Source of the DNA: Eledone cirrhosa
Taxonomy: Eukaryota
Reading direction: 5' to 3'
Assembly: GCA_964016885.1 (NCBI GenBank)
Contig: OZ024742.1
Span: 318,370,001 to 318,434,000, forward strand
DNA: 64,000 nucleotides
Part shown: piece by piece, positions 4,478-21,627 of the stretch
Layout: the number at the start of each line of letters is the position of its first letter
Position numbering within the stretch: position 1 is the first letter of the stretch
Position numbers and translations under genes: made by a program
The notes under the pieces: generated by a model
Seen by the model: only the letters and a program-made list of their open reading frames with translations
The model's database searches: none
What the model was told of the DNA's origin: nothing

Positions 4478-4648
4478 CTAGGGGTTGTAGTCCAATGCAG
4501 TTCAACCACAGTATTCTTGACATAACTTACACCCGCCGTGGGGCACTGGCCACCTTCGAGTGCAAAGCTGGTTATGTAATGGAGAAGAAAGAGAACAGAG
4601 TGTTCTGTGATGGGTTCTTTTGGAATAAACTACCACCAAAGTGTATAA
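4478..4648 (+). CDS. Exon: Sushi/CCP domain
   Basis: cttgtag acceptor and gtgagt donor, phase 1-1. Reads RGCSPMQF...ATFECKAGY...VFCDGFFWNKLPPKCI, with the four Cys and W..P.C of a CCP module. Confidence 0.9.
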
Positions 4649-7600
4649 GTGAGTATTTCTTTAATTATACCGAAATCTTTGTTGTTGTTGTTGTTGTTCT
4701 TCTTCTTCTTCTTCTTCTTCTTCTTCTTCTTCTTCTTCTTCTTCTTCTTCTTCTTCTTCTTCTGCTGCTGCTGCTTCTTCTTCTTCTTTTAAACAAAGGA
4801 TCAGTACCGAAACGCCGATATTACTCTTTTCCTTGTGGAATAAATAACTTAACCAAACTAACGAACTTCAATGTATAACTTGTATTTACAACTTGTATTG
4901 ATAACCAGACATGTTTGTAAGGTTAAGGGGTTAGCTTCACAACCAGGCGTTGATAGTGTTGTTCATGTTGTTGTTCTTGTTGTTGGTGGTGGTGGTTGTG
5001 ATGGTGGTGGCGTTATTGTTTAGCAGCAGATTACTCTTAACTGAGCAAACCTGATAGAGCTTCCATCGGTTTCGACGATGACCATTTAGATGAACATTCC
5101 GTTATTTTTTTCGTTATTAATTACCATGTAAATGGCTGAGTATTCCGCATATACGTGTATCCTTAACGTAATTTCCAAGCTGACTCAGCTCGACATAATA
5201 TGATACGACTGAACGTTTGAATAACAGGTACAACCCACCTTACGGGCTTCTACACAATTTTGGGCAACCCAACCTTGTGTCTAGAGCAGTGGTTCCTAAC
5301 GTGGGGCGCACACCCCACAGGGGGACAATTTGAATACTTAAAGGGGTCATTTGAAAATCTAAACTATAATAAAGTAAGAAGTGCGGGACTGTGTACGGTT
5401 TATCATTTTTTTTATCCCATTAGTAAAATAAGTTGGATTACTTTGAATAAATAATGAATTAATATTACATAATTTATCTACTAAATTTCGTGGCTGTTCA
5501 TTAAATATATTTTATTATTTATTTAAAGATTCACTTCTTTAACATTTTCAAATGACAACACTTGCGGTGTCGATCGCTTAAATGAACATATTAATTTTCT
5601 GTCACTAATTTTCTCCTAATGCATTTTATATATAATATCGTCTTTTTTTTAATGTATCATGGATTACGTTACTGATTACATAAAACAGTGTAACAACGTC
5701 TTGGTTCAATTTCTGTTTATATTGTCAATTACGTTTGTATTTGATGTATCATATCTACATGTATATATACTTGCGTATAATATCAATATACACACTACAC
5801 ATGCTAGCAGAAAACCACCCGAAGGATGGTTTTTCTGACGGTGATGTTAATGAGAACAAATTTCAGGTTTTACCTTATCACTTTGACACTAAGGCAACTT
5901 TAGTACATATCACTGTCAGAAACTCCTGTATCACCTCCACCTCCTCCACCACACATGTTACTGTATGTATCTGGTACCACCTATATGGTACATGTTACTG
6001 TCAGAAACTCCTGTATCACCTCCTCCTCCTCCACCACATATGTTACTGTATGTATCTGGTACCACCTATATGGTACATGTTACTGTCAGAAACTCCTGTA
6101 TCACCTCCACCTCCTCCACCACATATGTTACTGTATGTATCTGGTACCACCTATATGGTACATGTTACTGTCAGAAACTCCTGTATCACCTCCACCTCCT
6201 CCACCACATATGTTACTGTATGTATCTGGTACCACCTATATGGTACATGTTACTGTCAGAAACTCCTGTCTCACCTCCTCCTCCACCACATCTGGCACAA
6301 CCTATATACCAATTTATTTGTACTTTACAGCTTATCCTTGTTGTTTTCATATATTTTTTGGGGGGTGGGGGGTATATGTGGGGGGTGGGTAACAATTTTT
6401 GAGATGTTGAGGTGGGGTGTGGTGCACAAAAAGCTGGGAACCACTTATCTAGAGTCTAGACAAAACTGTGAGGAAACTCATTAGATGAATTGCGCCTGTA
6501 ATTAAAAGAACCATTCTTATCACACAGTGTCACGCTGAATTGACTTGGGAATTTTTTTAATTACACGCGTTTGTGGAATACTCAACCACTTGCACATGAG
6601 CAAGAACAAGCTACTCATGAACAACTGTATGGGATTAGACAAATACACTAAAACGTTGAAACCGACGGAGATCTATGCCATTCCGGCAAAGGTCGTTATA
6701 GTAGTGATAGAGAGGAGACAAAAATATGACAGCACGTTTGTATTGGTAAGTGAGTATATAACAGTACGTGGTTAAGTGATTAGGGTGTTCAGCTCACGAC
6801 CAGGTGGTTTCGTTGTTTGAACACTCAACGTTGGAGCCGACGGAGATCCAACATCATGTGACAGTCTTTCAGATGGTCTCTATATCGATGCGATCTAAGA
6901 TGTGTTTGTGCGAAGCTGGTCTTTCAGATATTGTTGTTGTTATTGTTGTTTCAGGTATCTAAGGATTTATCTCCAGTCTACTGAATCAAAATAAGTTTCA
7001 GTTGTAATGTTTCAGTTGTAATGGGTAACAAAGAAATAATATAAACAAATTATGTTTACAGAGACTGCTTTAGAAAACGACTGCGATTTTGAAAATGGAA
7101 GGTGTGGTTGGCTACAAGACCATACAGATGAATTTGACTGGATAAGACATTCACTGGATACTAATACTAAATACACTGGACCTTCAAATGACCACACATA
7201 TGGAGATATAAAAGAAGGTAACTATAAACTTAAATTTTAATTTCGTGGTGCAGCTTATAGAAAATCTATTTCTTGTACTATTAAGTATATACTGCAATTG
7301 TAATTATGTTGATTACTCCCAGAACCAGCTCAGTGCTCCTAGAAACGTCTGAGTACGCCTAGAAACGACTAAGTACTTCTAGTGTTGTGGATGGACAACT
7401 AAAATATCGTGATTTTGACCTCACTGGATCTCATCAGCTTCTATATTGTCATGGTCACATATTCTCTTTTGCTCTAATTTTATGCAATCTGAAGATATAG
7501 ATACATGTTAAATGTCTAAATATTAGGGAATTGTTACTGTTAATAAGATTATACTGAAGGACGGTGGATTGGCAGAATCATTAGAAACACCGGGTAAAAT

Positions 7601-10600
7601 GCTTTGCGGCATTTGTTCCGCTACTTTACGTTCTGAATACAAATCCCGCGCCGAGGTTAGCTTTGCCTTTCATCCTTACTAGGTCGATGGAATAAAGTAC
7701 CAGTAATACACTGTGGTCGATTTAATCTACTTTCCCCCTTCCCTTCAAATTGCTGGCCTTGTGCCAAAAGTAGAAACAATTATTAAGATTATACTGAAGG
7801 GCGGTGGATTGGCAAAATGCTTTGTAGTATTTGTTCCACCTCTTTACTTCCTGAGTTCACATCTCACTGAGATCGATTTGGCTTTTCATCTTTCTGAGAT
7901 CGATAAAATAAAGTACCTGTCAAGTAGCAGGGTTTATTTAATCAACTTTGCCTTTCCACCAAATTTGCTGGCCTTGTGTCTAAATTAGAAATCAATTTTG
8001 TCACCGACAGTACACTTTGTAAATCTCAAATGGTTCCATTCATCTAGCTCAGAGGTTCTCAAACTTTTTGGGCCACTGCCCCTCCCCCTCACGGTCACGT
8101 AATACCCTCAGTGTCCCCCCTCACCGCTTTTTCCAGAAAAACCTGCTTACACGTAAATTGTAAATAATATATAATAAATTAAATCGTTAATTTATATATA
8201 ATAAATAATATTATATATTTTTTATTTTACTATACATATAATATGTATCGTTTGATATTTAATATACTATTATATCATCTCTACCGCCACTCCAACGCCC
8301 CCTCAGGCCTCAGTGTTTCCTGGACACCTGATCTAGCTGGACACCTGATCTAGCTGAAAATAAGTACTATGGTATAGGAAAATAAGTACTATGGTATAGG
8401 AAAAACTCACCATCCTCAAAGAAACGATAGTGCTGAAAAATCGACAAGTAGTTTGTTAGATTGCTGTGCTGAGTTCAACTTTTCGTTAGATTATTGCTTG
8501 GAGAGGGTTAGTTTGTGCCAAGCCAAAAAATATGCTTCGTGAAATGACAACCCTGTAATTCAATGGATTAAGTGAGTTGCCATAGAGGGTTAAAACATGT
8601 TCTTTCTTGTAGAACTGGGTCAATTTGCACAATAATATCACTGAAACTGAACCTATTTTGGAGCTGAACTTATTTGGCAAGTGATATGATGTGAGGCCAT
8701 CTGTTGAAACTAAGCAATTACTTCGTGGAATAATCAATTTAGCCATTTAAAAAATGTTAAATTCACTTTACATTTATCATTTATCTATTACATCTATTAT
8801 TTAGTGCAAGAAGGGCGGTGGGTAGGCAAAATCGTTAGTGTGTCGGAGAAAATGTTTTGCGGCATAGAGTTATGACCCTTTACGTTCTGAGTTCAAATCC
8901 CACCGAGGTTAGCTTTCCCTTTCACCTTTACGGGGTCGATAAAATAGAGTACCATTCATGTACTGGGGTCAATGTAATGACCATTTCCCTCCCTACATAA
9001 TTGTTGGCCTTGTGCCGAAATTAGAAACCATTATTTTTTTGTCACCTGTACGATCTGAGTTCAAATCCCGCCGAGGTTGACTTTGCCTTTCATCCTTACA
9101 GGGTCGATAAAATAAAGTACCAGTAATACACTGGGTAATTGCTGGCCTTGTGCCTAAAGTAGAAACAATTATTTTTTTGTCACCTGGTCACTGAGAGTGT
9201 TCTATTGCAGTTGACTATTTCACAAACAGCGTGACGAAGATTTTGACACCAAGAAATAACTGATAAGTGTAAAGTGAATTTGCATATTTTGTTAATGGGA
9301 AAAATGACCTTTCCACCATATAATTGTTTAAACTCTTACATTTTATATTTAATTTTTTTTCTCAGGTTTCTACATGTACATAGAAGCCTCTTCGCGGAAA
9401 ATCGACAGCAAAGCAAGATTATTATCTCCCTTATTTGTGAAGACCAACATCACAATGTGTTTTGAATTCTGGTACCACATGTGGTGTCAAGGACTGAAAG
9501 GTAGGGTGGATATTTTATTTTCATTTTTCAACTAGGAAGATACGTGGCATATTGCCTAGAGCTGAGGTTCTCAAAGTGGGCGCTACCGCCTCCATGAGAA
9601 GGTCCAGGGGGCGCTGGAGTCCAAGGGGTGGTAGAGATGATATAGTACATTAAATATCAAATGATACATATTATATATAAATATAGTAGAATAAAAAATA
9701 TACTATATTTATTTATACATAGTATATATTATACTATTTATTATATATAAATTAACGATTTAATTTATATATTATTTACAATTTGCATGTAAGCAGGTCT
9801 CTCTGGAAATAGGGGTGGGGCGCTGAAGGTATTACGTTGTCGTGAGGCGGGCGGTGGCCCAAAACGTTTGAGAACTTCTGGCCTAGAGTGTTGGTCCCAC
9901 GATTATAAGGTCATTATTTATCATTGCTCCAGTCCAATCTAGTGATAATAAAATTAGTACCAGCAACTATTAGAAGTTAACCTTGTGATTCTAATTCTCG
10001 AGCCAAATGATCTATATACATACAACACTTATATACGTACATACAGCACCTATATACAAATACTTATATAAGTATATAGGTGCTATATATATTTATATAC
10101 ATGCGCCGTATATAAGCACAATTCACCTACAAGTACCTCCACTGCTTATTAAATTTTGTCATAATTCTCCGACGAAATTTTATTGTAAATGATTCATATT
10201 GATACAGCAGCTGGAGAATCTAATAATTATTTTATTTTATAATTTAAAAAAAAAACATTATATATGTCAAAAAAGAACATCACAAGAGATCCCATATTTA
10301 CGAACATACACTATACAATTACTGACCCCACCCCCACCCCCGTTTATTTCAAACTTCCGGTTATAAGAATTTAAGCAAAAGTCCAACCCCTTCACTTATC
10401 CCCTCCCCCTATTATTTGGGACCTGAGAGTATTGCATAAGTGGTGGTACTTTGTAACGCTAGAAGAGCCTCTATGTGGCCATTCAACCTGCTAGAAATAG
10501 CAACAAAATTTTCTCAAATCCCATCTTATATAAAAGAATGGCCAGATTGGAAATTGATGTCCTAGATATGAAAAATAGACAAAACAGTTATTGCTGGAAT

Positions 10601-13600
10601 TCTCTTACCCATATGTCTCTCGATCAAAATTAACCTAGGAATAAACAACAACAGAAACAATATATATAGCTATTTGATAATGAAACGTCTGAACAAATTA
10701 TTGGAATACAAACCGTAAACATTTTGGTCAGCAGATCGATATTCTGATGACTTGACCGGATGTCATCTAGAAATTAACTTGAAAGCAGTATTTTGTTTGG
10801 GGGGGGGGGTATATTTAAGGAATTTATTAGGAAATAAGACAGTAAAACTGAAATGTTTACGTTAAAAGATAAAAAAAAAAAGAAAATGGAGACGTTATAA
10901 AAATGAAAAGGAAAGATCTTTTCTTCGCCCACTTATTCCTGAGAGGGTTGTGGGGGCAGTGTCCTCAAGCACTCCCTCCAACGGGTCCTGTCAGAAGCAA
11001 CCATCTCCAACTGATCCGGCTGGATCCCCAACCGTGATCAACCAAGCTCATGGATGTTATCCAACCATCTGGCTCAGGGTCTACCCGTAAAGTTTCGCCC
11101 GTAAAATCTGTCCAGCGATTCTTTCCTCAGATATTTTAACCACATGCCCATAGTATCGGAGCTGTGATCTCTCAATTCGGAGAAGATAAAAACAAAATTA
11201 AGTAATGAGAAAAAAATGGGATCTTGCCGTATAGGAAAGTATAGGAGAGGACTATAAATGAGAGGAAGAGGAGGGAAAAAGCAAGGACTCTTGAGGTACA
11301 GAAAAAAGGGAGAGGAAAGGGGAGAGGGTGATGGGCTCAGGACCTAAGGTGGGGTGGTGTTTGGGCTGCAAAAATTGTATGGTATTCTTGTGATTTTATT
11401 TTCTTAACATTATTGATTTTTTTTAATTCCAGAACCTGGTTTTCTCAAGGTGTATCTGCGTCCAATAAGTAAATTCTTAAACCAATCCAGGATTATCTTT
11501 AATGAAACTGGTGACCATGGAAACAAGTGGCACCAAGCTGAGATTCAGCTGGAAAACATAACAGAATCATTCCAGGTAAAATAAAACTATCAAATTATTT
11601 ATTTATTTAATTTATTTAATTTATTTTTCCCGACATGGAATTTATTTTCCATCTTTTTAAGCATTTTGAATAAAAATTGACTTTTGTGTTCTTAATTTAA
11701 ACTATACTTCGATTCTTCGAGTGCTATATTTATATCTGTATATATATGGTCGCATGTGTCGTTATGTAGCTGTTAAAGAGTTCGCATCGCATGTTGGCGT
11801 AATTGTTTGGCTGTAAAGTGATTTAGCTCTGGATGTATTTCATCCCAGTGTGGCTTCATTCTGTTCTTATAGCCAACGGAGGAATTATTTTTCTCGCTAT
11901 TTTATAACAATTAAATAAATCATCATTAAGTTCGCAACACCAAGAGAAATGCAATTTATAATTTCGGTTTCTTCTGTAGCTACAACTCAATAAATTTTGT
12001 TTATCTTTCTCATTGATTTTCTCACTGGTTTTCTTCGGTAAATTGTTTTCGTTCTTTGTGTTCGGTAAATTATTATTGTTGATGTTGTGTCCATTCATGC
12101 TGTTTGTAGCAAATCCTTGTAAAATGAATTATGTATATCTCTACGAATTCGAATAAAAGGTGTCTTCAGTGGATATAGTTAGAAGAATATCCAGTTATTC
12201 AACACGACTAGTAGTTGTGGCATTACTGTCGCAGATAGTATTCATCTTAAATTCGATGAATAGTCTCCCACGCCAAAATGTGCAACTGATCGGGTTGACT
12301 GACTGTCTCTGTAAGTATATATGTATGTATGCATGCATGCATGTATGTTTATTTTGCTGAGCGAGAGACCCTCTAGTCTTCATTAAGACATCTCTCTAGG
12401 AGGAGGTCACTCTGATATAAAACCTGCGACTTCGTTAGTATCCAATGATGTAGACCAGTTCTACTTTTTGGGCAAATGCATTCGATCTCCAGAAAGTGGG
12501 ATTGGCCCCATGCAAAGCCTTTCCTCACTTAAAAAATCTTCAAGCACTGTCATCGCTTGATATGTGATAATGTTTGCGATGCAAGACATGGCTGGCCATA
12601 GGCAAGTTCCTAGCAGGACTAAAAAGCTACGACCTTGATTCTCATGCTTAAGTATCAAGCGATGGCATTTCTAGAAATCGAGTTGCGGCCATCATGTATG
12701 TTATACATATGTATATATACATGTATGTATGTAGTATGTATGTATGCATGTATGTATGTATGTATACATGTTATGTATGCATGCATGTATGCATGTATGT
12801 ATGTATTTATGTATGTATGTATGTATGCATGCATGTATGCATGTTATATCTGTATGCATGTACATTTGTATGTACATTTGTATGTATGTATGTATGTATG
12901 TATGTATGCATGTATGTATGAATGAATGATGAGTCACAGTCGCAACCATGTTCAAAGAGAACCAGTGAACTATGATCTCTACGGTATTGTGAGGGTTCAC
13001 AGGCAACCTGATGCAAGACCTCAGGCCAGGGAGATCCATAGTTGTCGTCAGTGTGCGAAGGAATGCAAGTCTCTAGCAGGCTTGAAAAGCCATATCCGAG
13101 CATCCCACATCTGAATCTGACAAGCGATTGCAATACTCTTGACAGAGTTTGCAGCCATCATGTATGAATGTATGCATGTTATATCTGTATGTATGTTTGT
13201 ATGTATGTATGAATATATGCATGTTATATCTGTATGTATGTATGTTTGTATGTATGTATGAATGTATGCACGTTATATCTGTATGTATGTATGTTTGTAT
13301 GTATTACTGTCTTATGATTTTATATACTATCTATTTAATAGCTTGTGTTCGAAGGAACAACGAAAAAGAATTACCAAAATGACATTGCAATTGATGATGT
13401 TCGACTGTGGCATGTTGCCTGCAATGGTAAGTAAAACAGCTTTTGTCAAGAAGTCAATCTTAATTTGTTTGTGAATTATTTTGTTCTCATGTGTTGTGGT
13501 ATTCAGTGAACTTATTACGAGTTTAATTAGTGCCTGGGTCATTCATTAAAGCTTAAAGGAGTGAGGGTGGAGTAGCTTCAGCCCAGATTCCACTCTCTCT

Positions 13601-15229
13601 TTACACTCCTTTCCTCTGCATCCGCCATAACCTCCACACCTTACATGACTCTACTTCTTAATCACAGTCAATGTAACAGCACCAATGTCTCTCTCTTCAT
13701 TCTAAAACCAAAGGCAAGAGCTCGGAACATTATATTGCTTTTCACTCCTCGCTGCAACTGAATAGCGAATTAGTGAAATCCTTAGAACATCGAACGACGC
13801 CTTGCGTTCCGGGTTCAAATACCATCGAGGTCAACTTTGTTTTTCAATCTCCTGAGGTCGATAAATAACGTACTAATCTAGGGCTGTTGACTGACAAAAC
13901 CTTTAGAGCGGCGAACAGGATGCCTTGCAGCATTTGTTTCCGCTTTTGCGTTCTGAATTCTGAGTTCAAATGCCGTTGCTTCTCCTTGCCTGTCCACTGG
14001 TTCCGGGGCCATTGGAAGGGTCCCGAACACGACACTTCCTCCTGACTAAGAAATAGAAAATTAAAATGTAGCTATAGATTGTTAAATTGGAGTAAATTTG
14101 AGCAGAATTTTGCCACAAATTATGGCGATGCTGTCTACTTCTAGGAACTGTCCTGTTAGGGCTTATCTTAACTTTGACCCTATTAAATGGGATTAGGCCT
14201 TGTTGTAATGTTTAAGAGGTTCGCTTCGCATTACATGGTTCCTCGTTTGATCTCACCGTACGATACCTTGAGCAAATATCTTCTACCATAGATTCGGGTT
14301 GACCAATGCCTTGTAGACAGAGACTACGTGGAAAAGCCCTTACTGATACTGAATTGTTAATCAATTAGCAAGCAGCTCAAGGTGCCGCCTTCCTTCATAC
14401 TGGTTGTTAGTTCTTCATTTAAGATTTTATCATTATAAAGGTAATTCAACTGTATTTCTAACTTGAATATAAATATTATAATGTATTGTGATAAGACCAT
14501 TGTCAATTCTTCCCTGTCTTTTTTATTTTATTAGATACTACATCTAGAAGTTGGCATATGCCGGCATCTAAAAGTGTCTCATATGCCGTGACAGTACCTT
14601 CCAGCATCCGTCCATTTCCGTCTTCATCAGATTCTTCAGAAAAACTCACTACATTAGATACAGAAAATAACTCAGATAGACCAAAATTTATCTCAAAATC
14701 AAAAGATTTTTATTCAAAGGCATCAAGGGGTGTAACCTCGCCAAAATTTGATAAGCATACTCAGACTGGTGCACCTGATACATCTCGATTTTTGTCACGT
14801 GATAAACTGTATGAAGCAACAACATCAACAACACCAACACAAGTTAATACTCGAATAGGGACAAGGAAGTTCACGGAAGTAAATGAGGAATCGAAACTTT
14901 TCCAGTCTTCAACAACACTGAAAATGACCATTGAAATAGAAACGATAGCAAGTGTGACGGGAAGTACACATGACAGTAACAACACAGTTCGGAAAATTAA
15001 TGCAATACCTTCTCAAAATGAGCCCCTTAACAGAAATGCCAAAGAAAATTACACACCTCTGGCAATTGGAATTACGGTTGCTTTATTATTAGGAGTCTGT
15101 GTTATATTCTTCATTGTTTGGTTATGGGCATGGAACCAAGACAAAAAGAGAGCTGAGGCAGAAAACGAAGAAGAGACACATCCCATTACTAATGCAGCTT
15201 CCAACAGTAGTCTTCAAAATGCTCTTTGA
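4478..15229 (+). CDS. 5'-partial multi-exon gene for a Sushi/CCP + MAM + Ser/Thr-rich stalk + single-pass TM protein (class C scavenger receptor-like); exons 4478-4648, 7062-7217, 9366-9500, 11433-11575, 13342-13426, 14535-15229
   Basis: All six exons have a polypyrimidine-AG acceptor, and the five internal ones have GT donors with matching phases (1,1,1,0,1). The joined 1385 nt stay open for about 460 codons to TGA at 15227-15229. CCP, MAM, stalk and TM motifs are recognisable. The family name is inferred from domain order only. Confidence 0.9.
5287..6446. mobile_element. Non-autonomous hAT (Charlie-like) element containing an 85-bp minisatellite
   Basis: Ends are cagtggttcc / ggaaccactt, with 8-bp flanks gtctagag / atctagag. 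Confidence 0.7.
5905..6305. repeat. Minisatellite, 85-bp unit, about 4.5 copies
   Basis: tgttactgtcagaaactcctgtatcacc... recurs at 5993, 6078, 6163 and 6248. Confidence 0.9.
7062..7217 (+). CDS. Exon: MAM domain N-terminal part
   Basis: tttacag acceptor and gtaact donor. Reads CDFENGRCGWLQDHTDEFDWIRH...TGPSNDHT, the MAM signature. Confidence 0.92.
7558..7995 (+). mobile_element. Two tandem tRNA-derived SINE copies
   Basis: Each begins gg[a/g]cggtggattggca and ends ..gctggccttgtg..aaa.tagaaa. The sequence taagattatactgaagg precedes both. Confidence 0.75.
8050..8330 (+). mobile_element. hAT MITE
   Basis: Starts cagaggttctcaaact; 8-bp TSD atctagct at 8042-8049 and 8331-8338. Confidence 0.75.
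9366..9500 (+). CDS. Exon: MAM domain middle part
   Basis: tttctcag acceptor and gtaggg donor. Reads GFYMYIEASS...ARLLSP...CFEFWYHMW. Confidence 0.92.
9562..9880 (-). mobile_element. hAT MITE, same family as 8050-8330, opposite orientation
   Basis: TIRs ctgaggttctcaaa / tttgagaacttctg; exact 8-bp TSD gcctagag. Confidence 0.85.
10918..11322 (-). mobile_element. RTE-type 3' fragment sharing extra flank with 2837-3240
   Basis: Colinear similarity to 2837-3240 across both the LINE part and the purine-rich non-LINE part. Confidence 0.75.
11433..11575 (+). CDS. Exon: MAM domain
   Basis: ttccag acceptor and gtaaaa donor. Reads PGFLKVYLR...GDHGNKWHQAEIQLENITESFQ. Confidence 0.9.
12360..12695 (+). 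mobile_element. Short RTE-derived non-autonomous retroelement (5'-UTR-like head plus 3' tail); second copy at about 51575-51905
   Basis: ctaggag.aggtcactctgatataaaacctgcgac head; ends gc.gccatcatgtatg into (ATGT)n. Two similar copies occur in the window. Confidence 0.6.
12926..13160 (+). mobile_element. LINE 3' fragment with C-terminal C2H2 zinc finger
   Basis: CRQCAKECKSLAGLKSHIRASH, then a short UTR and an (ATGT)n tail. The 3' end is also present at about 2050-2145. Confidence 0.6.
13342..13426 (+). CDS. Exon: MAM domain C-terminus
   Basis: aatag acceptor and gtaagt donor. Reads LVFEG...DIAIDDVRL...C. Confidence 0.9.
14535..15229 (+). CDS. Terminal exon: Ser/Thr-rich mucin-like stalk, TM helix, short cytoplasmic tail
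   Basis: ttattag acceptor, phase 1. Ser/Thr-rich run, hydrophobic LAIGITVALLLGVCVIFFIVWLW followed by KKR, then a stop. AATAAA lies at 15563-15568. Confidence 0.9.
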
Positions 15230-15564
15230 TATTTTACTTCGATATTTTTTTTCACTGTGAAGAAGATATTGTAAACATTACAATTGTTGATACAACATAG
15301 CAAACATTCAACTGATATAACAGTTGCATGCATGCTTTCTTGCCTGTTGTCTCTGTATGTTGCCAGAAAGATAATATTGTATCACGTCTGAACAAATGTG
15401 TATAATTTCTATATACAGAAGTACTGCTTATCTATAGATGAGAAGTATTTCTATAGAAGAGTGTATATAAATGTGGGAGGTTACAGGGAACAACTTGTTA
15501 TGTGTATGGTGTAAATAAGTGTGTGTATGTACATACATTTATATGTACGAGTATATAAAAGAAA

Positions 15565-16122
15565 TAAAATGGAGCTGTAGACTGTTATATTGGAGTAAAT
15601 TTGAGCAGAATTTTGCCACAAATTATGGCGATGTCGCCTACTTCTAGGAACTGTCCTGCTAGGGCTTATCTTTATTTTGGCCCTATTAAATGGGATTAGG
15701 CCTTGTTGTAATGTTTAAGAGGTTCGCTTCGCATTACATGGTTCCTCGTTTGATCTCACCGTACGATACCTTGAGCAAATATCTTCTACCATAGATTCGG
15801 GTTGACCAATGCCTTGTAGACAGAGACTACGTGGAAAAGCCTTTACTGATACTGAATTGTCAATCAATTAGCAAGCAGCTCAAGGTGCCGCCTTCCTTCA
15901 TACTGGTTGTTAGTTCTTCATTTAAGATTTTATCATTATAAAGGCAATTCAACTGTATTTCTAACTTGACTATAAATATTATAATGTCTTGTGATAAGAC
16001 CATTGTCAATTCTTCCCTGTCATTTTAATTTTATTAGATACTAGATCTAGAATTTGGCATATGCCGGCATCTTAAAAGTTTTCAAAACACTCTTTGATAT
16101 TTTCCTTCGATATTTTTTTCAC
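15565..16122 (+). repeat. Local duplication of the last intron end and terminal exon with a large internal deletion; candidate alternative terminal exon 16038-16075
   Basis: About 15565-16079 closely matches 14062-14576. It is followed directly by 16080-16122, which matches 15211-15255. The AG acceptor is retained at 16036-16037. Confidence 0.85.
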
Positions 16123-16668
16123 GCCAGCCGCTGTTTTGCTATAGATTGTTCACCATCCCCTTCCTTCCTTTTACAAACATACATTCACACAAACTCTCTC
16201 TCTCTCTCTCTCAAACACACACACACATTGTGTGACGGACGGAAGTCGCTCAAATTTATACATAGATAGCGTTTACAGAGATAAGACTATACTAAATGTA
16301 TTGTCTATGTTGCCCATAGTTGATTACTAATAGTTCTTGAATTTTAGTATCACCATTTGTCACTAATTTATATTACCTATAGCCATTTAGTATAATCCAT
16401 TGAATAGAAAAAAACGGTCCATGTTGTTTACATAGCCAATTTGGGGGACACCAAAATATGCACCGAAATTACTCAAGTCCATCTCAACGACCGATGACCA
16501 TGGAGTTCTGTGTTCTTCGTTTGTATTTTTTTTTTTTTTTATTATTTTTTAAGGTTTCTCCTTTAAAAAATTGTTTTTTCTTTTTGTTTTGTTTTGTTTC
16601 CGTTCGTTGTCTTGTCCTCTCTCAGTTGATTTTCTTAAGTTTATCATTGGTCACTACTTTCGCACTAA

Positions 16669-17100
16669 TTGCCTACCCGTTTCGGCCTGCACCCTCTGTC
16701 TTGCCGCCAGAGCGCAGGCCGGTTCCCCCGACACACCGCTCTCAACAACATATTGAGAATAATCCTGGGCGCAGCGGGCTTTCCATCTCAACTGAAGCCA
16801 TCAAGCCTAAAGTGCGGAGATGGCAAGCGCCCCGACGGAATCACCCTCTTCCCATTCGAAGGACGTAGATCCCTCATCTGGGACACCACCTGCTGCGACA
16901 CGTTCTCCGCCTCCAACTTAGACGCTTCGGCCACAAACCCCGGCATCGCAGCCCGCCTCGCAGAAGAACGTAAAATAAACAAATACCGGGGTTTGTCCGG
17001 CCGCTTCCTCTTCACACCGTCGATACCTCAGGCGTACTTGAACCACGTACTGCCGAGTATCTCCGCAACATCGGAGCATCGGCAGCCCGTCTGAGGAGAG
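16669..17100 (+). mobile_element. CRE-like non-LTR retrotransposon fragment (restriction-like endonuclease region)
   Basis: GC-rich island encoding HPLSC..RH..LNNILR, DGKRPDGITLFPF..GRRSLIWDTTCCDT, AARLAEERKINKY. Confidence 0.75.
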
Positions 17101-17303
17101 AGCCCCACGAGGTTGGGTGGCTGTTACAGCGGGTGTCACTGGCCATCGTCCGGGGGAGTGTTTTTGCCATCTTGTCAGCGGGGCGCATCACTTCTGCCCC
17201 CTTGCTCTAGACCCAAAGCCCAATCACCCTCCCCCTTTACCCCTCCCCTCTCTACTGCGACACCAGAGCTCTTGTCATCCCCTCCCTTTCCCGTTCTTTT
17301 TCT

Positions 17304-17904: not shown

Positions 17905-18204
17905 CTTCTTCTTCTTCTTCTTCTTCTTCTTCTTCTTCTTCTTCTTTCTTCTTTCTTCTTTCTTCTTCTTCTTGAGAGGGTAATGAGTGCAGAGTCCTCA
18001 AACATTCCTTCTAGCAGGTCCTGTCAGAAGCAACCGTCTCCAACTGATCCAGCTGGATCCCCAAAGCGAGACCAGCCAAGCTCAAGGATATTATCCAACC
18101 ATCTTGCTCGGGGTCTATCCCTGGGTCTCCTACCTGTTCGTTTTGCCCGCAAAATCTGTCCAGCAATTTTTTCCTGAGATATTCTACCACATGCCCATAG
18201 TATC
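17905..18204 (-). mobile_element. RTE-type 3' fragment with long (GAA)n tail inserted in the satellite edge
   Basis: Same family as 2837-3110. It separates one diverged satellite unit (17828-17904) from the main array. Confidence 0.7.
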
Positions 18205-21200
18205 AGATCTGTTTTCTGTTTGTTGAAATACTAGTCTTTGACTCTTCGGTGGGTGTGGCTTTGCAGTTTATATTATATCTGTTTTCTGTTTGTTGAAATA
18301 CTAGTCTTTGACTCTTCGGTAGGTGTGCTTTGCAGTTTATATTATATCTGTTTTCTGTTTGTTGAAATACTAGTCTTTGGCTCTTCGGTGGGTGTGGCTT
18401 TGCAGTTTATATTATATCTGTTTTCTGTTTGTTGAAATACTAGTCTTTGGCTCTTCGGTGGGTGTGGCTTTGCAGTTTATATTATATCTGTTTTCTGTTT
18501 GTTGAAATACTAGTCTTTGGCTCTTCGGTGGGTGTGGCTTTGCAGTTTATATTATATCTGTTTTCTGTTTGTTGAAATACTAGTCTTTGGCTCTTCGGTG
18601 GGTGTGGCTTTGCAGTTTATATTATATCTGTTTTCTGTTTGTTGAAATACTAGTCTTTGGCTCTTCGGTAGGTGTGGCTTTGCAGTTTATATTATATCTG
18701 TTTTCTGTTTGTTGAAATACTAGTCTTTGACTCTTCGGTGGGTCTGGCTTTGCAGTTTATATTATATCTGTTTTCTGTTTGTTGAAATACTAGTCTTTGG
18801 CTCTTCGGTGGGTGTGGCTTTGCAGTTTATATTATATCTGTTTTCTGTTTGTTGAAATACTAGTCTTTGGCTCTTCGGTGGGTGTGGCTTTGCAGTTTAT
18901 ATTATATCTGTTTTCTGTTTGTTGAAATACTAGTCTTTGGCTCTTCGGTGGGTGTGGCTTTGCAGTTTATATTATATCTGTTTTCTGTTTGTTGAAATAC
19001 TAGTCTTTGGCTCTTCGGTAGGTGTGGCTTTGCAGTTTATATTATATCTGTTTTCTGTTTGTTGAAATACTAGTCTTTGGCTCTTCGGTGGGTGTGGCTT
19101 TGCAGTTTATATTATATCTGTTTTCTGTTTGTTGAAATACTAGTCTTTGACTCTTCGGTAGGTGTGCTTTGCAGTTTATATTATATCTGTTTTCTGTTTG
19201 TTGAAATACTAGTCTTTGGCTCTTCGGTGGGTGTGGCTTTGCAGTTTATATTATATCTGTTTTCTGTTTGTTGAAATACTAGTCTTTGGCTCTTCGGTAG
19301 GTGTGGCTTTGCAGTTTATATTATATCTGTTTTCTGTTTGTTGAAATACTAGTCTTTGACTCTTCGGTAGGTGTGGCTTTGCAGTTTATATTATATCTGT
19401 TTTCTGTTTGTTGAAATACTAGTCTTTGGCTCTTCGGTGGGTGTGGCTTTGCAGTTTATATTATATCTGTTTTCTGTTTGTTGAAATACTAGTCTTTGGC
19501 TCTTCGGTAGGTGTGGCTTTGCAGTTTATATTATATCTGTTTTCTGTTTGTTGAAATACTAGTCTTTGGCTCTTCGGTGGGTGTGGCTTTGCAGTTTATA
19601 TTATATCTGTTTTCTGTTTGTTGAAATACTAGTCTTTGGCTCTTCGGCGGGTGTGGCTTTGCAGTTTATATTATATCTGTTTTCTGTTTGTTGAAATACT
19701 AGTCTTTGCCTCATTGGTGGGTGTGGCTTTGCAGTTTATATTATATCTGTTTTCTGTTTGTTGAAATACTAGTCTTTGCCTCATTGGTGGGTGTGGCTTT
19801 GCAGTTTATATTATATCTGTTTTCTGTTTGTTGAAATACTAGTCTTTGGCTCTTCGGTAGGTGTGGCTTTGCAGTTTATATTATATCTGTTTTCTGTTTG
19901 TTGAAATACTAGTCTTTGGCTCATCGGTGGGTGTGGCTTTGCAGTTTATATTATATCTGTTTTCTGTTTGTTGAAATACTAGTCTTTGGCTTTTCGGTAG
20001 GTGTGGCTTTGCAGTTTATATTATATCTGTTTTCTGTTTGTTGAAATACTAGTCTTTGGCTCTTCGGTAGGTGTGGCTTTGCAGTTTATATTATATCTGT
20101 TTTCTGTTTGTTGAAATACTAGTCTTTGACTCTTCGGTAGGTGTGGCTTTGCAGTTTATATTATATCTGTTTTCTGTTTGTTGAAATACTAGTCTTTGGC
20201 TCTTCGGTGGGTGTGGCTTTGCAGTTTATGTTATATCTGTTTTCTGTTTGTTGAAATACTAGTCTTTGGCTCTTCGGCGGGTGTGGCTTTGCAGTTTATA
20301 TTATATCTGTTTTCTGTTTGTTGAAATACTAGTCTTTGCCTCATTGGTGGGTGTGGCTTTGCAGTTTATATTATATCTGTTTTCTGTTTGTTGAAATACT
20401 AGTCTTTGCCTCATCGGTGGGTGTGGCTTTGCAGTTTATATTATATCTGTTTTCTGTTTGTTGAAATACTAGTCTTTGGCTCTTCGGCGGGTGTGGCTTT
20501 GCAGTTTATATTATATCTGTTTTCTGTTTGTTGAAATACTAGTCTTTGGCTCTTCAGCGGGTGTGGCTTTGCAGTTTATATTATATCTGTTTTCTGTTTG
20601 TTGAAATACTAGTCTTTGGCTCTTCGGTAGGTGTGGCTTTGCAGTTTATATTATATCTGTTTTCTGTTTGTTGAAATACTAGTCTTTGACTCTTCGGTAG
20701 GTGTGGCTTTGCAGTTTATATTATATCTGTTTTCTGTTTGTTGAAATACTAGTCTTTGGCTCTTCGGTGGGTGTGGCTTTGCAGTTTATGTTATATCTGT
20801 TTTCTGTTTGTTGAAATACTAGTCTTTGGCTCTTCGGCGGGTGTGGCTTTGCAGTTTATATTATATCTGTTTTCTGTTTGTTGAAATACTAGTCTTTGCC
20901 TCATTGGTGGGTGTGGCTTTGCAGTTTATATTATATCTGTTTTCTGTTTGTTGAAATACTAGTCTTTGCCTCATCGGTGGGTGTGGCTTTGCAGTTTATA
21001 TTATATCTGTTTTCTGTTTGTTGAAATACTAGTCTTTGGCTCTTCGGCGGGTGTGGCTTTGCAGTTTATATTATATCTGTTTTCTGTTTGTTGAAATACT
21101 AGTCTTTGCCTCATTGGTGGGTGTGGCTTTGCAGTTTATATTATATCTGTTTTCTGTTTGTTGAGATACTAGTCTTTGCCTCATCGGTGGGTGTGGCTTT

Positions 21201-21627
21201 GCAGTTTATATTATATCTGTTTTCTGTTTGTTGAAATACTAGTCTTTGGCTCTTCGGTGGGTGTGGCTTTGCAGTTTATATTATATCTGTTTTCTGTTTG
21301 TTGAAATACTAGTCTTTGCCTCATCGGTGGGTGTGGCTTTGCAGTTTATATTATATCTGTTTTCTGTTTGTTGAAATACTAGTCTTTGGCTCTTCGGTGG
21401 GTGTGGCTTTGCAGTTTATATTATATCTGTTTTCTGTTTGTTGAAATACTAGTCTTTGGCTCTTCGGCGGGTGTGGCTTTGCAGTTTATATTATATCTGT
21501 TTTCTGTTTGTTGAAATACTAGTCTTTGGCTCTTCGGTGGGTGTGGCTTTGCAGTTTATATTATATCTGTTTTCTGTTTGTTGAAATACTAGTCTTTGCC
21601 TCATCGGTGGATGTAGCTTTGCAGTTT
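18205..21627. repeat. Satellite array, 70-bp unit, about 49 copies
   Basis: Unit atctgttttctgtttgttgaaatactagtctttggctcttcggtgggtgtggctttgcagtttatattat. Variation is mostly confined to a window of about 12 nt. Confidence 0.97.

What the first reader, a model, noticed from the sequence alone, without database searches (positions are those of the whole stretch)
15565..16122. Duplicated terminal exon with stalk and TM deleted: possible soluble receptor isoform
Seen: about 500 bp of the last intron, its acceptor and the first ~40 nt of the terminal exon are duplicated downstream, then jump directly to the exon's end. Splicing exon 13342-13426 (phase 1) to 16038 gives DTRSRIWHMPAS-stop (TAA 16073-16075). 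That would yield CCP-MAM with no stalk, TM or tail. An AATAAA at 15563 lies just upstream, so poly(A) choice could switch isoforms. Established: Drosophila class C scavenger receptors include membrane and predicted secreted members. Inference: a secreted decoy or opsonin form born by local duplication.
Basis: partly seen in the sequence, partly recalled or inferred. Interest (0 to 1): 0.72.

Follow-up and report, generated by a model that had tools for sequence, protein, structure and literature searches.

The report
Truncated exon copy behind octopod receptor
A shortened copy of the last intron and exon of an octopus-type membrane receptor gene sits right behind the gene; the copy is real DNA and could in principle yield a secreted form, but it is likely a decaying leftover rather than a working switch.

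Summary
The duplication is real. 15565-16076 copies 14062-14573 (21 differences in 512 nt) and is joined to a copy of 15209-15251; the ~636 nt coding stalk and membrane anchor are missing. Short-read DNA contigs bridge both new junctions. The gene is a single-copy signal peptide-CCP-CCP-MAM-stalk-TM protein, class C scavenger receptor-like. Splicing 13426 to 16038 would give a 317-aa anchor-less protein, but the only spliced contig available (one shallow run, depth 5) joins 13426 to 14535, the membrane form. That run is too shallow to test a minor isoform. The copy shows no constraint: both amino-acid differences are replacements, a stop follows, its pyrimidine tract is weaker, it ends in a cut-off repeat, and the next AATAAA is 900 nt away inside a mobile repeat. 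The AATAAA at 15563 straddles the duplication border. Verdict: likely a neutral relic (0.62), leaky minor product (0.23), selected secreted isoform (0.12). Deep RNA data would decide.

The parts
4478..4648 (+). exon, second CCP/Sushi domain (signal-peptide exon and first CCP exon lie about 58.5 kb and 0.75 kb upstream of the window)
   Evidence: Pfam PF00084 E 5e-7; borders AG/GT; upstream exons
7062..7217 (+). MAM exon 1
   Evidence: PF00629; borders
9366..9500 (+). MAM exon 2
   Evidence: PF00629; borders
11433..11575 (+). MAM exon 3
   Evidence: PF00629, below the curated cut-off as a single exon; borders
13342..13426 (+). MAM exon 4, phase-1 donor
   Evidence: spliced to 14535 in a contig of run X4
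14062..14534 (+). 3' part of the last intron; template of the copy; branch-site-like CTAAC at -77, 17 of 20 pyrimidines before the AG
14535..15229 (+). coding part of the terminal exon: Ser/Thr-rich stalk, transmembrane helix (about 15062-15133), short tail, TGA
   Evidence: covered by the spliced X4 contig
15230..15574 (+). 3' UTR as far as the X4 contig runs; its true 3' end is not shown
   Evidence: table 8, record 25
15563..15568 (+). AATAAA straddling the left junction of the duplication
15565..16037 (+). duplicated intron segment (18 differences in 473 nt); acceptor AG kept, two T-to-A changes in the pyrimidine tract (15 of 20)
15610..15760 (+). 151-nt contig of run X4 (depth 2.5) with copy-specific letters
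16038..16075 (+). duplicated exon start; would read 12 residues then TAA if spliced to 13426
16077..16119 (+). copy of the last codons and first UTR bases (15209-15251), 4 differences in 43 nt
16121..16180 (+). 5'-truncated high-copy dispersed repeat abutting the end of the copy
   Evidence: 1039 first-look candidates in G000, 40 scored; two other copies inspected run further left
16974..16979 (+). first AATAAA downstream of the duplicated exon, inside a dispersed repeat
   Evidence: 2958 first-look candidates, 40 scored, 85-91% alike for nearly all

Best explanation
A local rearrangement left a truncated copy of the last intron and exon directly behind a class C scavenger receptor-like gene; the gene is spliced to its original terminal exon to give the membrane form, and the copy is likely a neutrally decaying relic rather than a used alternative last exon. 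The rearrangement was likely microhomology-mediated (template switching, or tandem duplication followed by two deletions). It removed 636 nt between two AGT triplets, and a likely later 1-nt insertion made the TAA. The practical effect of the copy is likely on the 3' end: the sequence just after the AATAAA at 15563 is now duplicated intron, so cleavage happens in, or transcripts run through, the copy.
For: Shown: the only spliced contig joins 13426 to 14535 (GT..AG) and runs to 15574. Copy and original differ at 25 of 555 positions (4.5%). The exon-derived parts differ no less than the intron part: 7 of 82 vs 18 of 473, Fisher p 0.077. Both substitutions in the 35 coding nt before the stop change the amino acid (T to R, S to I). 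In the copy of the conserved SLQNAL end, 2 of 3 coding-region changes alter residues that are conserved in the three octopod orthologues. The copied acceptor has two T-to-A changes, 15 vs 17 pyrimidines in 20, and lies 1.5 kb behind the original acceptor and beyond an AATAAA. No AATAAA or ATTAAA lies between 16076 and 16973; the one at 16974 is in a dispersed repeat. The copy ends in a 5'-truncated repeat. The 636-nt deletion model has 3-nt microhomology, the 635-nt model none. A short stop-ended tail is the default outcome here: intron read-through gives GK-stop, and several other cryptic acceptors give 2-25 residue tails. Four of 5 octopod proteins found, from 4 species, are the membrane form.
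Against: The acceptor AG, the branch-site-like CTAAC and most of the pyrimidine tract are intact in the copy. A copy-specific 151-nt contig lies past the AATAAA in the spliced run, a hint of read-through. O. vulgaris has an annotated 327-aa anchor-less product leaving at exactly this junction. A 12-residue tail need not be conserved to work, so lack of coding constraint is weak evidence. The expression data are one shallow contig set.
Confidence: 0.62

Rival explanations
1. The copied acceptor is used at a low level whenever polymerase reads through the 15563 signal, giving a little 317-aa secreted protein with no selected role (leaky proto-isoform).
For: Near-intact acceptor; copy-specific contig at 15610-15760 past the AATAAA; the rearrangement replaced the sequence downstream of that AATAAA; signal-peptide exon present; the stop would be in a last exon.
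Against: A stronger acceptor comes first; no near poly(A) signal for the distal exon. The read-through hint is a single contig at depth 2.5 and could be genomic DNA or a longer 3' UTR.
Confidence: 0.23
2. The copy is a selected, regulated alternative last exon that switches the receptor to a secreted decoy or opsonin.
For: CCP plus MAM are reported sufficient to bind bacteria (dSR-CI) and a viral envelope protein (shrimp MjSRC) (PMC5222524, passages). dSR-CIII and dSR-CIV are predicted secreted (PMC8721182, passage). An anchor-less isoform at the same junction is annotated in O. vulgaris, likely from an annotation whose alternative forms came from PASA updates with long- and short-read RNA (PMC10700109, passages; the link of this accession to that paper is my inference). 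9 of 49 CCP/MAM relatives scanned lack a C-terminal hydrophobic helix, though several look like gene-model truncations.
Against: No constraint on the copy; weaker acceptor; no own poly(A) signal. The O. vulgaris tail has no homologue in the window or in G000, so the two would be independent. The O. bimaculoides, O. sinensis and Argonauta records found are the membrane form only.
Confidence: 0.12
3. The duplication is an assembly or haplotype artefact.
For: The DNA runs that confirm it (X1-X3) are one sample and may be the source of the assembly.
Against: Contigs with 0 differing letters bridge the left junction (14489-15618 in X1 and X2) and the deletion plus right junction (15992-16169 in X1 and X2). 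In X1 the depth there is 14.2 against 13.6-15.6 on single-copy flanks. The copies differ by 4.5%. A second sample (X4) carries copy-specific letters.
Confidence: 0.03

Closest known systems
Class C scavenger receptors (Drosophila dSR-CI, shrimp MjSRC)
   Same: Signal peptide, two CCP domains, one MAM domain, Ser/Thr-rich stalk, one TM helix, short tail. Insect proteins named SR-C are hit at 34-35% identity over 91-96% of the query (P0066, P0069).
   Different: No somatomedin B domain (also absent in MjSRC, PMC5222524). A single clade with arthropod SR-C is not resolved in the MAM tree. NCBI names the orthologues 'MAM and LDL-receptor class A domain-containing protein 2'. Ligands are untested.
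Drosophila dSR-CIII and dSR-CIV
   Same: Predicted secreted SR-C forms (PMC8721182, passage).
   Different: These are separate paralogous genes; here one gene (single copy) would use an alternative last exon.
O. vulgaris 327-aa isoform CAI9725707.1 (P0018)
   Same: Orthologous gene; leaves at the same MAM/terminal-exon junction; no TM.
   Different: Its 22-aa tail is unrelated to the terminal exon and has no homologue here, so it does not come from this duplication.
Membrane/secreted switches by alternative 3' ends (IgM heavy chain, soluble Flt-1; recalled) and homologous duplicated 3'-terminal exons (e.g. human capping protein beta, PMC3228551, passages)
   Same: Two mutually exclusive last exons, chosen by competition between splicing and polyadenylation.
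   Different: In the recalled cases the secreted end is proximal. Here it would be distal, needing a complete upstream last exon to be skipped; use is not shown.

Membership tests
Class C scavenger receptor (SR-C) | Two N-terminal CCP/Sushi domains | tested here: met
   PF00084 on the upstream exon (E 2.6e-6) and on 4480-4647 (E 5.3e-7)
Class C scavenger receptor (SR-C) | One MAM domain after the CCPs | tested here: met
   Four exons cover PF00629 positions 1-158 in order
Class C scavenger receptor (SR-C) | Signal peptide, Ser/Thr-rich stalk, single TM helix | tested here: met
   Signal-peptide exon scores 44.3 vs next best 23.0 among 38,362 frames. TM segment identical to the octopod orthologues, hydropathy 2.97.
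Class C scavenger receptor (SR-C) | Somatomedin B domain (insect members) | tested here: not met
   No PF01033 in window exons or in P0001/P0018. Shrimp MjSRC also lacks it. Filed only as SR-C-like.
Class C scavenger receptor (SR-C) | One clade with arthropod SR-C | tested here: inconclusive
   Quick IQ-TREE of 51 MAM domains (careful search unfinished): cephalopod clade SH-aLRT 94, arthropod clade 85; they sit in an open fork (80) with oyster and nemertean CCP-MAM rows and 3 MAM-only rows
Class C scavenger receptor (SR-C) | Binding of microbes or polyanions; haemocyte expression | not testable with these tools
   needs bench assays and tissue RNA
Functional alternative last exon (membrane/secreted switch) | Intact 3' splice site in frame with the upstream exon | tested here: met
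   AG, CTAAC at -77, 15 of 20 pyrimidines; phase 1; 12 residues then stop
Functional alternative last exon (membrane/secreted switch) | Transcripts with the 13426-16038 junction | tested here: inconclusive
   One shallow contig set shows the 14535 junction; contigs cannot show absence
Functional alternative last exon (membrane/secreted switch) | Its own poly(A) signal | tested here: inconclusive
   Only variant hexamers at 16291 and 16403; first AATAAA at 16974, in a dispersed repeat
Functional alternative last exon (membrane/secreted switch) | Purifying selection on acceptor or exon | tested here: not met
   7 of 82 exon-derived vs 18 of 473 intron differences; 2 pyrimidine-tract losses; small numbers, low power
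Functional alternative last exon (membrane/secreted switch) | Conservation in related species | not testable with these tools
   No relatives of G000 are held

The most novel reading that the evidence does not exclude
The copy is a young, working distal last exon: read-through of a poly(A) site altered by the same rearrangement lets the 13426 donor skip to 16038 and secrete a 317-aa CCP-CCP-MAM receptor. It would have arisen independently of the unrelated anchor-less ending annotated at the same junction in O. vulgaris, so octopods would have evolved a soluble SR-C-like pattern-recognition protein twice from one gene.
Probability: 0.12. Interest if true: 0.62.

Novelty: new member of a known kind. 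Interest (0 to 1): 0.28.

Why it matters
As a relic it is an ordinary partial exon duplication, of interest mainly as a clean example of raw material for a new last exon and as a trap for gene annotation. The side result is modest but useful: cephalopods have a single-copy CCP-CCP-MAM-TM gene built like class C scavenger receptors, under a misleading database name, with an anchor-less isoform annotated in O. vulgaris. If the distal exon were used and regulated, it would be a datable birth of a secreted immune receptor and a case of convergence at one splice junction, testable with one RT-PCR.

Tried and rejected
No RNA holder listed: none of the 7 runs listed is on record as RNA. X4 is taken as RNA only because it holds a GT..AG-spliced contig that the three DNA contig sets lack. 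No 13426-16038 joint and no X4 contig on 16038-16119 appeared; at depth about 5 and with contigs that drop rare variants, this blank is not evidence. The X4 contig ends at 15574 with no loose end, so the 3' end is not shown. RAD-seq runs X5-X7 (three other samples) gave only stray reads: none across a junction, and about 1x over 15825-15978 in X6 only; uninformative on whether the copy is fixed. Search of 50%-cluster representatives with alignment A2: the best 150 of 12,546 hits were mostly multi-MAM proteins and added nothing. The O. vulgaris tail was sought ungapped in six frames of the window and gapped in three frames downstream of 13426 (best scores 26 and 28, chance level) and in G000: no homologue. 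A paralogous gene as owner of the copied exon was rejected: one locus only. Pfam found nothing for the ORF at 16669-17091. The careful tree did not finish. Lazzaro 2005 (Genetics 169:2023) is not held and was not read. Paper searches listed no report of a cephalopod SR-C or of this duplication; only listings and abstract starts were seen for most, and subscription papers are not covered. Earlier scan notes: none.

Full report
OBSERVATION. The duplication is there. Self-blastn gives 14052-14575 vs 15557-16079 at 95.4%. A global alignment resolves it into 15565-16076 = 14062-14573 (21 mismatches in 512 nt), followed directly by 16077-16119 = 15209-15251 (4 in 43), with nothing homologous afterwards. 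Splicing exon 13342-13426 to 16038 gives 12 residues and TAA at 16073-16075; splicing to 14535 gives a 231-residue stalk-TM-tail. In the 3.0-Gb genome G000 the terminal exon has one full copy plus these two fragments, and the protein search finds one locus with high-identity exons.

NOT AN ARTEFACT. In short-read contig sets X1 and X2, contigs with no differing letter bridge the left junction (14489-15618) and the deletion and right junctions (15992-16169). In X1 the latter has depth 14.2 against 13.6-15.6 for single-copy flanks; in X2 it is 7 against 6.9-13.3; X3 lists no such contig among the pieces shown. X1-X3 are one sample and may be the source of the assembly, so they verify the junctions, not the spread of the allele. 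A second sample, X4, holds a 151-nt contig at 15610-15760 with no differing letter over seven positions where copy and original differ. Three RAD-seq runs were uninformative.

THE GENE. Exons at 4478-4648, 7062-7217, 9366-9500, 11433-11575, 13342-13426 and 14535-15229, plus a CCP exon about 750 nt and a signal-peptide exon about 58.5 kb upstream of the window, give an open frame of 536 residues: signal peptide, CCP, CCP, MAM, Ser/Thr-rich stalk, TM, tail. The hypothetical short form would be 317 residues. Orthologues are in O. bimaculoides, O. sinensis, O. vulgaris and Argonauta, with more distant ones in two unnamed transcript-derived clusters and a cuttlefish; the window protein groups with the octopods (SH-aLRT 99). 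The layout matches shrimp MjSRC, which has two CCPs, a MAM and a TM and lacks somatomedin B (PMC5222524, passages). The MAM tree (51 rows that I chose from the hits, plus the window protein; quick method only) does not resolve whether the cephalopod and arthropod proteins are one clade, so I call it SR-C-like. A recent replication study confirms that dSR-CI promotes binding to bacteria but found no major need for it in phagocytosis (10.1101/2025.07.07.663442, passage).

HOW THE COPY AROSE (inferred). There are three junctions. The left one has short shared sequence on both sides and straddles the AATAAA at 15563-15568. The middle one is best read as a 636-nt in-frame deletion between two AGT triplets (3-nt microhomology; the 635-nt alternative has none), which on the original letters would have kept the native last six residues, followed by a 1-nt insertion that creates the TAA. 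In-frame is a one-in-three event and says little. The right junction runs into a dispersed repeat (1039 first-look candidates, 40 scored) whose left part, present in both other copies inspected, is missing here. This fits template switching, or tandem duplication plus two deletions. Either way the sequence after the AATAAA is now duplicated intron. Overall divergence is 25 of 555; I give no date because no rate was tested. One identical run of 161 nt is longer than uniform scatter predicts (p 0.006, 20,000 shuffles), which hints at gene conversion.

IS IT USED? None of 7 listed runs is on record as RNA. X4 holds a contig joining 13425/6 to 14534/5 over GT..AG and running to 15574, at depth 5.2, which the three DNA sets lack; I infer X4 is RNA, and that the membrane form is made. 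The run is too shallow, and contigs too lossy, to test a minor junction. The contig at 15610-15760 may be read-through, a longer 3' UTR or genomic DNA.

SEQUENCE SIGNS. The copied acceptor keeps its AG and the CTAAC at -77 but has 15 rather than 17 pyrimidines in 20; the gene's own acceptors range from 9 to 17, so it is not disabled. It would have to win against an acceptor 1.5 kb earlier and a complete last exon with AATAAA. Its own 3' end is poor: ACTAAA at 16291, AATAGA at 16403, first AATAAA at 16974 inside a repeat with 2958 first-look candidates. Exon-derived parts differ at 7 of 82 positions, the intron part at 18 of 473 (p 0.077): no constraint, with low power. Short stop-ended tails are the default after this donor, so 'removes the TM' is not a sign of design.

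Among 11 members of 6 cephalopod clusters, one, O. vulgaris CAI9725707.1 (327 aa), leaves at exactly this junction with a 22-residue tail and no TM. The O. vulgaris genome paper annotated alternative forms by PASA updates from Iso-Seq and RNA-seq (PMC10700109, passages); that this accession comes from it is my inference. The tail has no homologue here. Nine of 49 CCP/MAM relatives scanned lack a C-terminal hydrophobic helix, including two oyster isoforms and two cuttlefish models; several may be truncated models. dSR-CIII and dSR-CIV are predicted secreted (PMC8721182, passage). So an anchor-less SR-C-like protein is plausible biology, but nothing ties it to this copy.

VERDICT. Relic 0.62, leaky unselected product 0.23, selected regulated isoform 0.12, artefact 0.03. 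Duplicated 3'-terminal exons and membrane/secreted switches are known kinds (PMC3228551, passages; IgM and soluble Flt-1 recalled). Interest 0.28; 0.62 if the isoform proves real and regulated. No supplements were read.

Noticed in passing
P0018 (O. vulgaris CAI9725707.1), orthologous locus: Annotated 327-aa anchor-less isoform that leaves at the MAM/terminal-exon junction with an unrelated 22-aa tail; its exon origin and read support are unknown.
   Followed up: partly
window 15681-15841 vs 14178-14338: 161-nt identical run between the two copies, longer than uniform scatter predicts (p 0.006); possible gene conversion.
   Followed up: partly
window 13427-13435: Reading through the donor gives GK-stop, with ATTAAA at 13545, 14060 and 14182: a simpler possible route to a secreted form by intronic polyadenylation; an oyster isoform (P0082) continues similarly with GK after its MAM domain.
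   Followed up: partly
window 18201-21627: Tandem array of a 70-nt unit, about 49 copies, about 97% alike.
   Followed up: no
window 16640-17190: High-copy dispersed repeat with a 141-codon open frame resembling the C-terminal end of a non-LTR retrotransposon (resemblance recalled; no Pfam hit; copy search).
   Followed up: partly
G000:C1:363.47-364.08 Mb and G000:C3:64.50-64.58 Mb: Dense runs of MAM-domain exons, probably large multi-MAM (MALRD-like) genes; the C1 run has near-identical repeated hits.
   Followed up: no
P0007 and P0037 (cuttlefish, contigs of equal length 528,441): Two CCP/MAM gene models without TM, possibly a tandem duplicate of the orthologue or broken models.
   Followed up: no
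upstream of window, G000:C3 about 318,311,485: The signal-peptide exon is separated from the first CCP exon by an intron of about 57.7 kb.
   Followed up: yes
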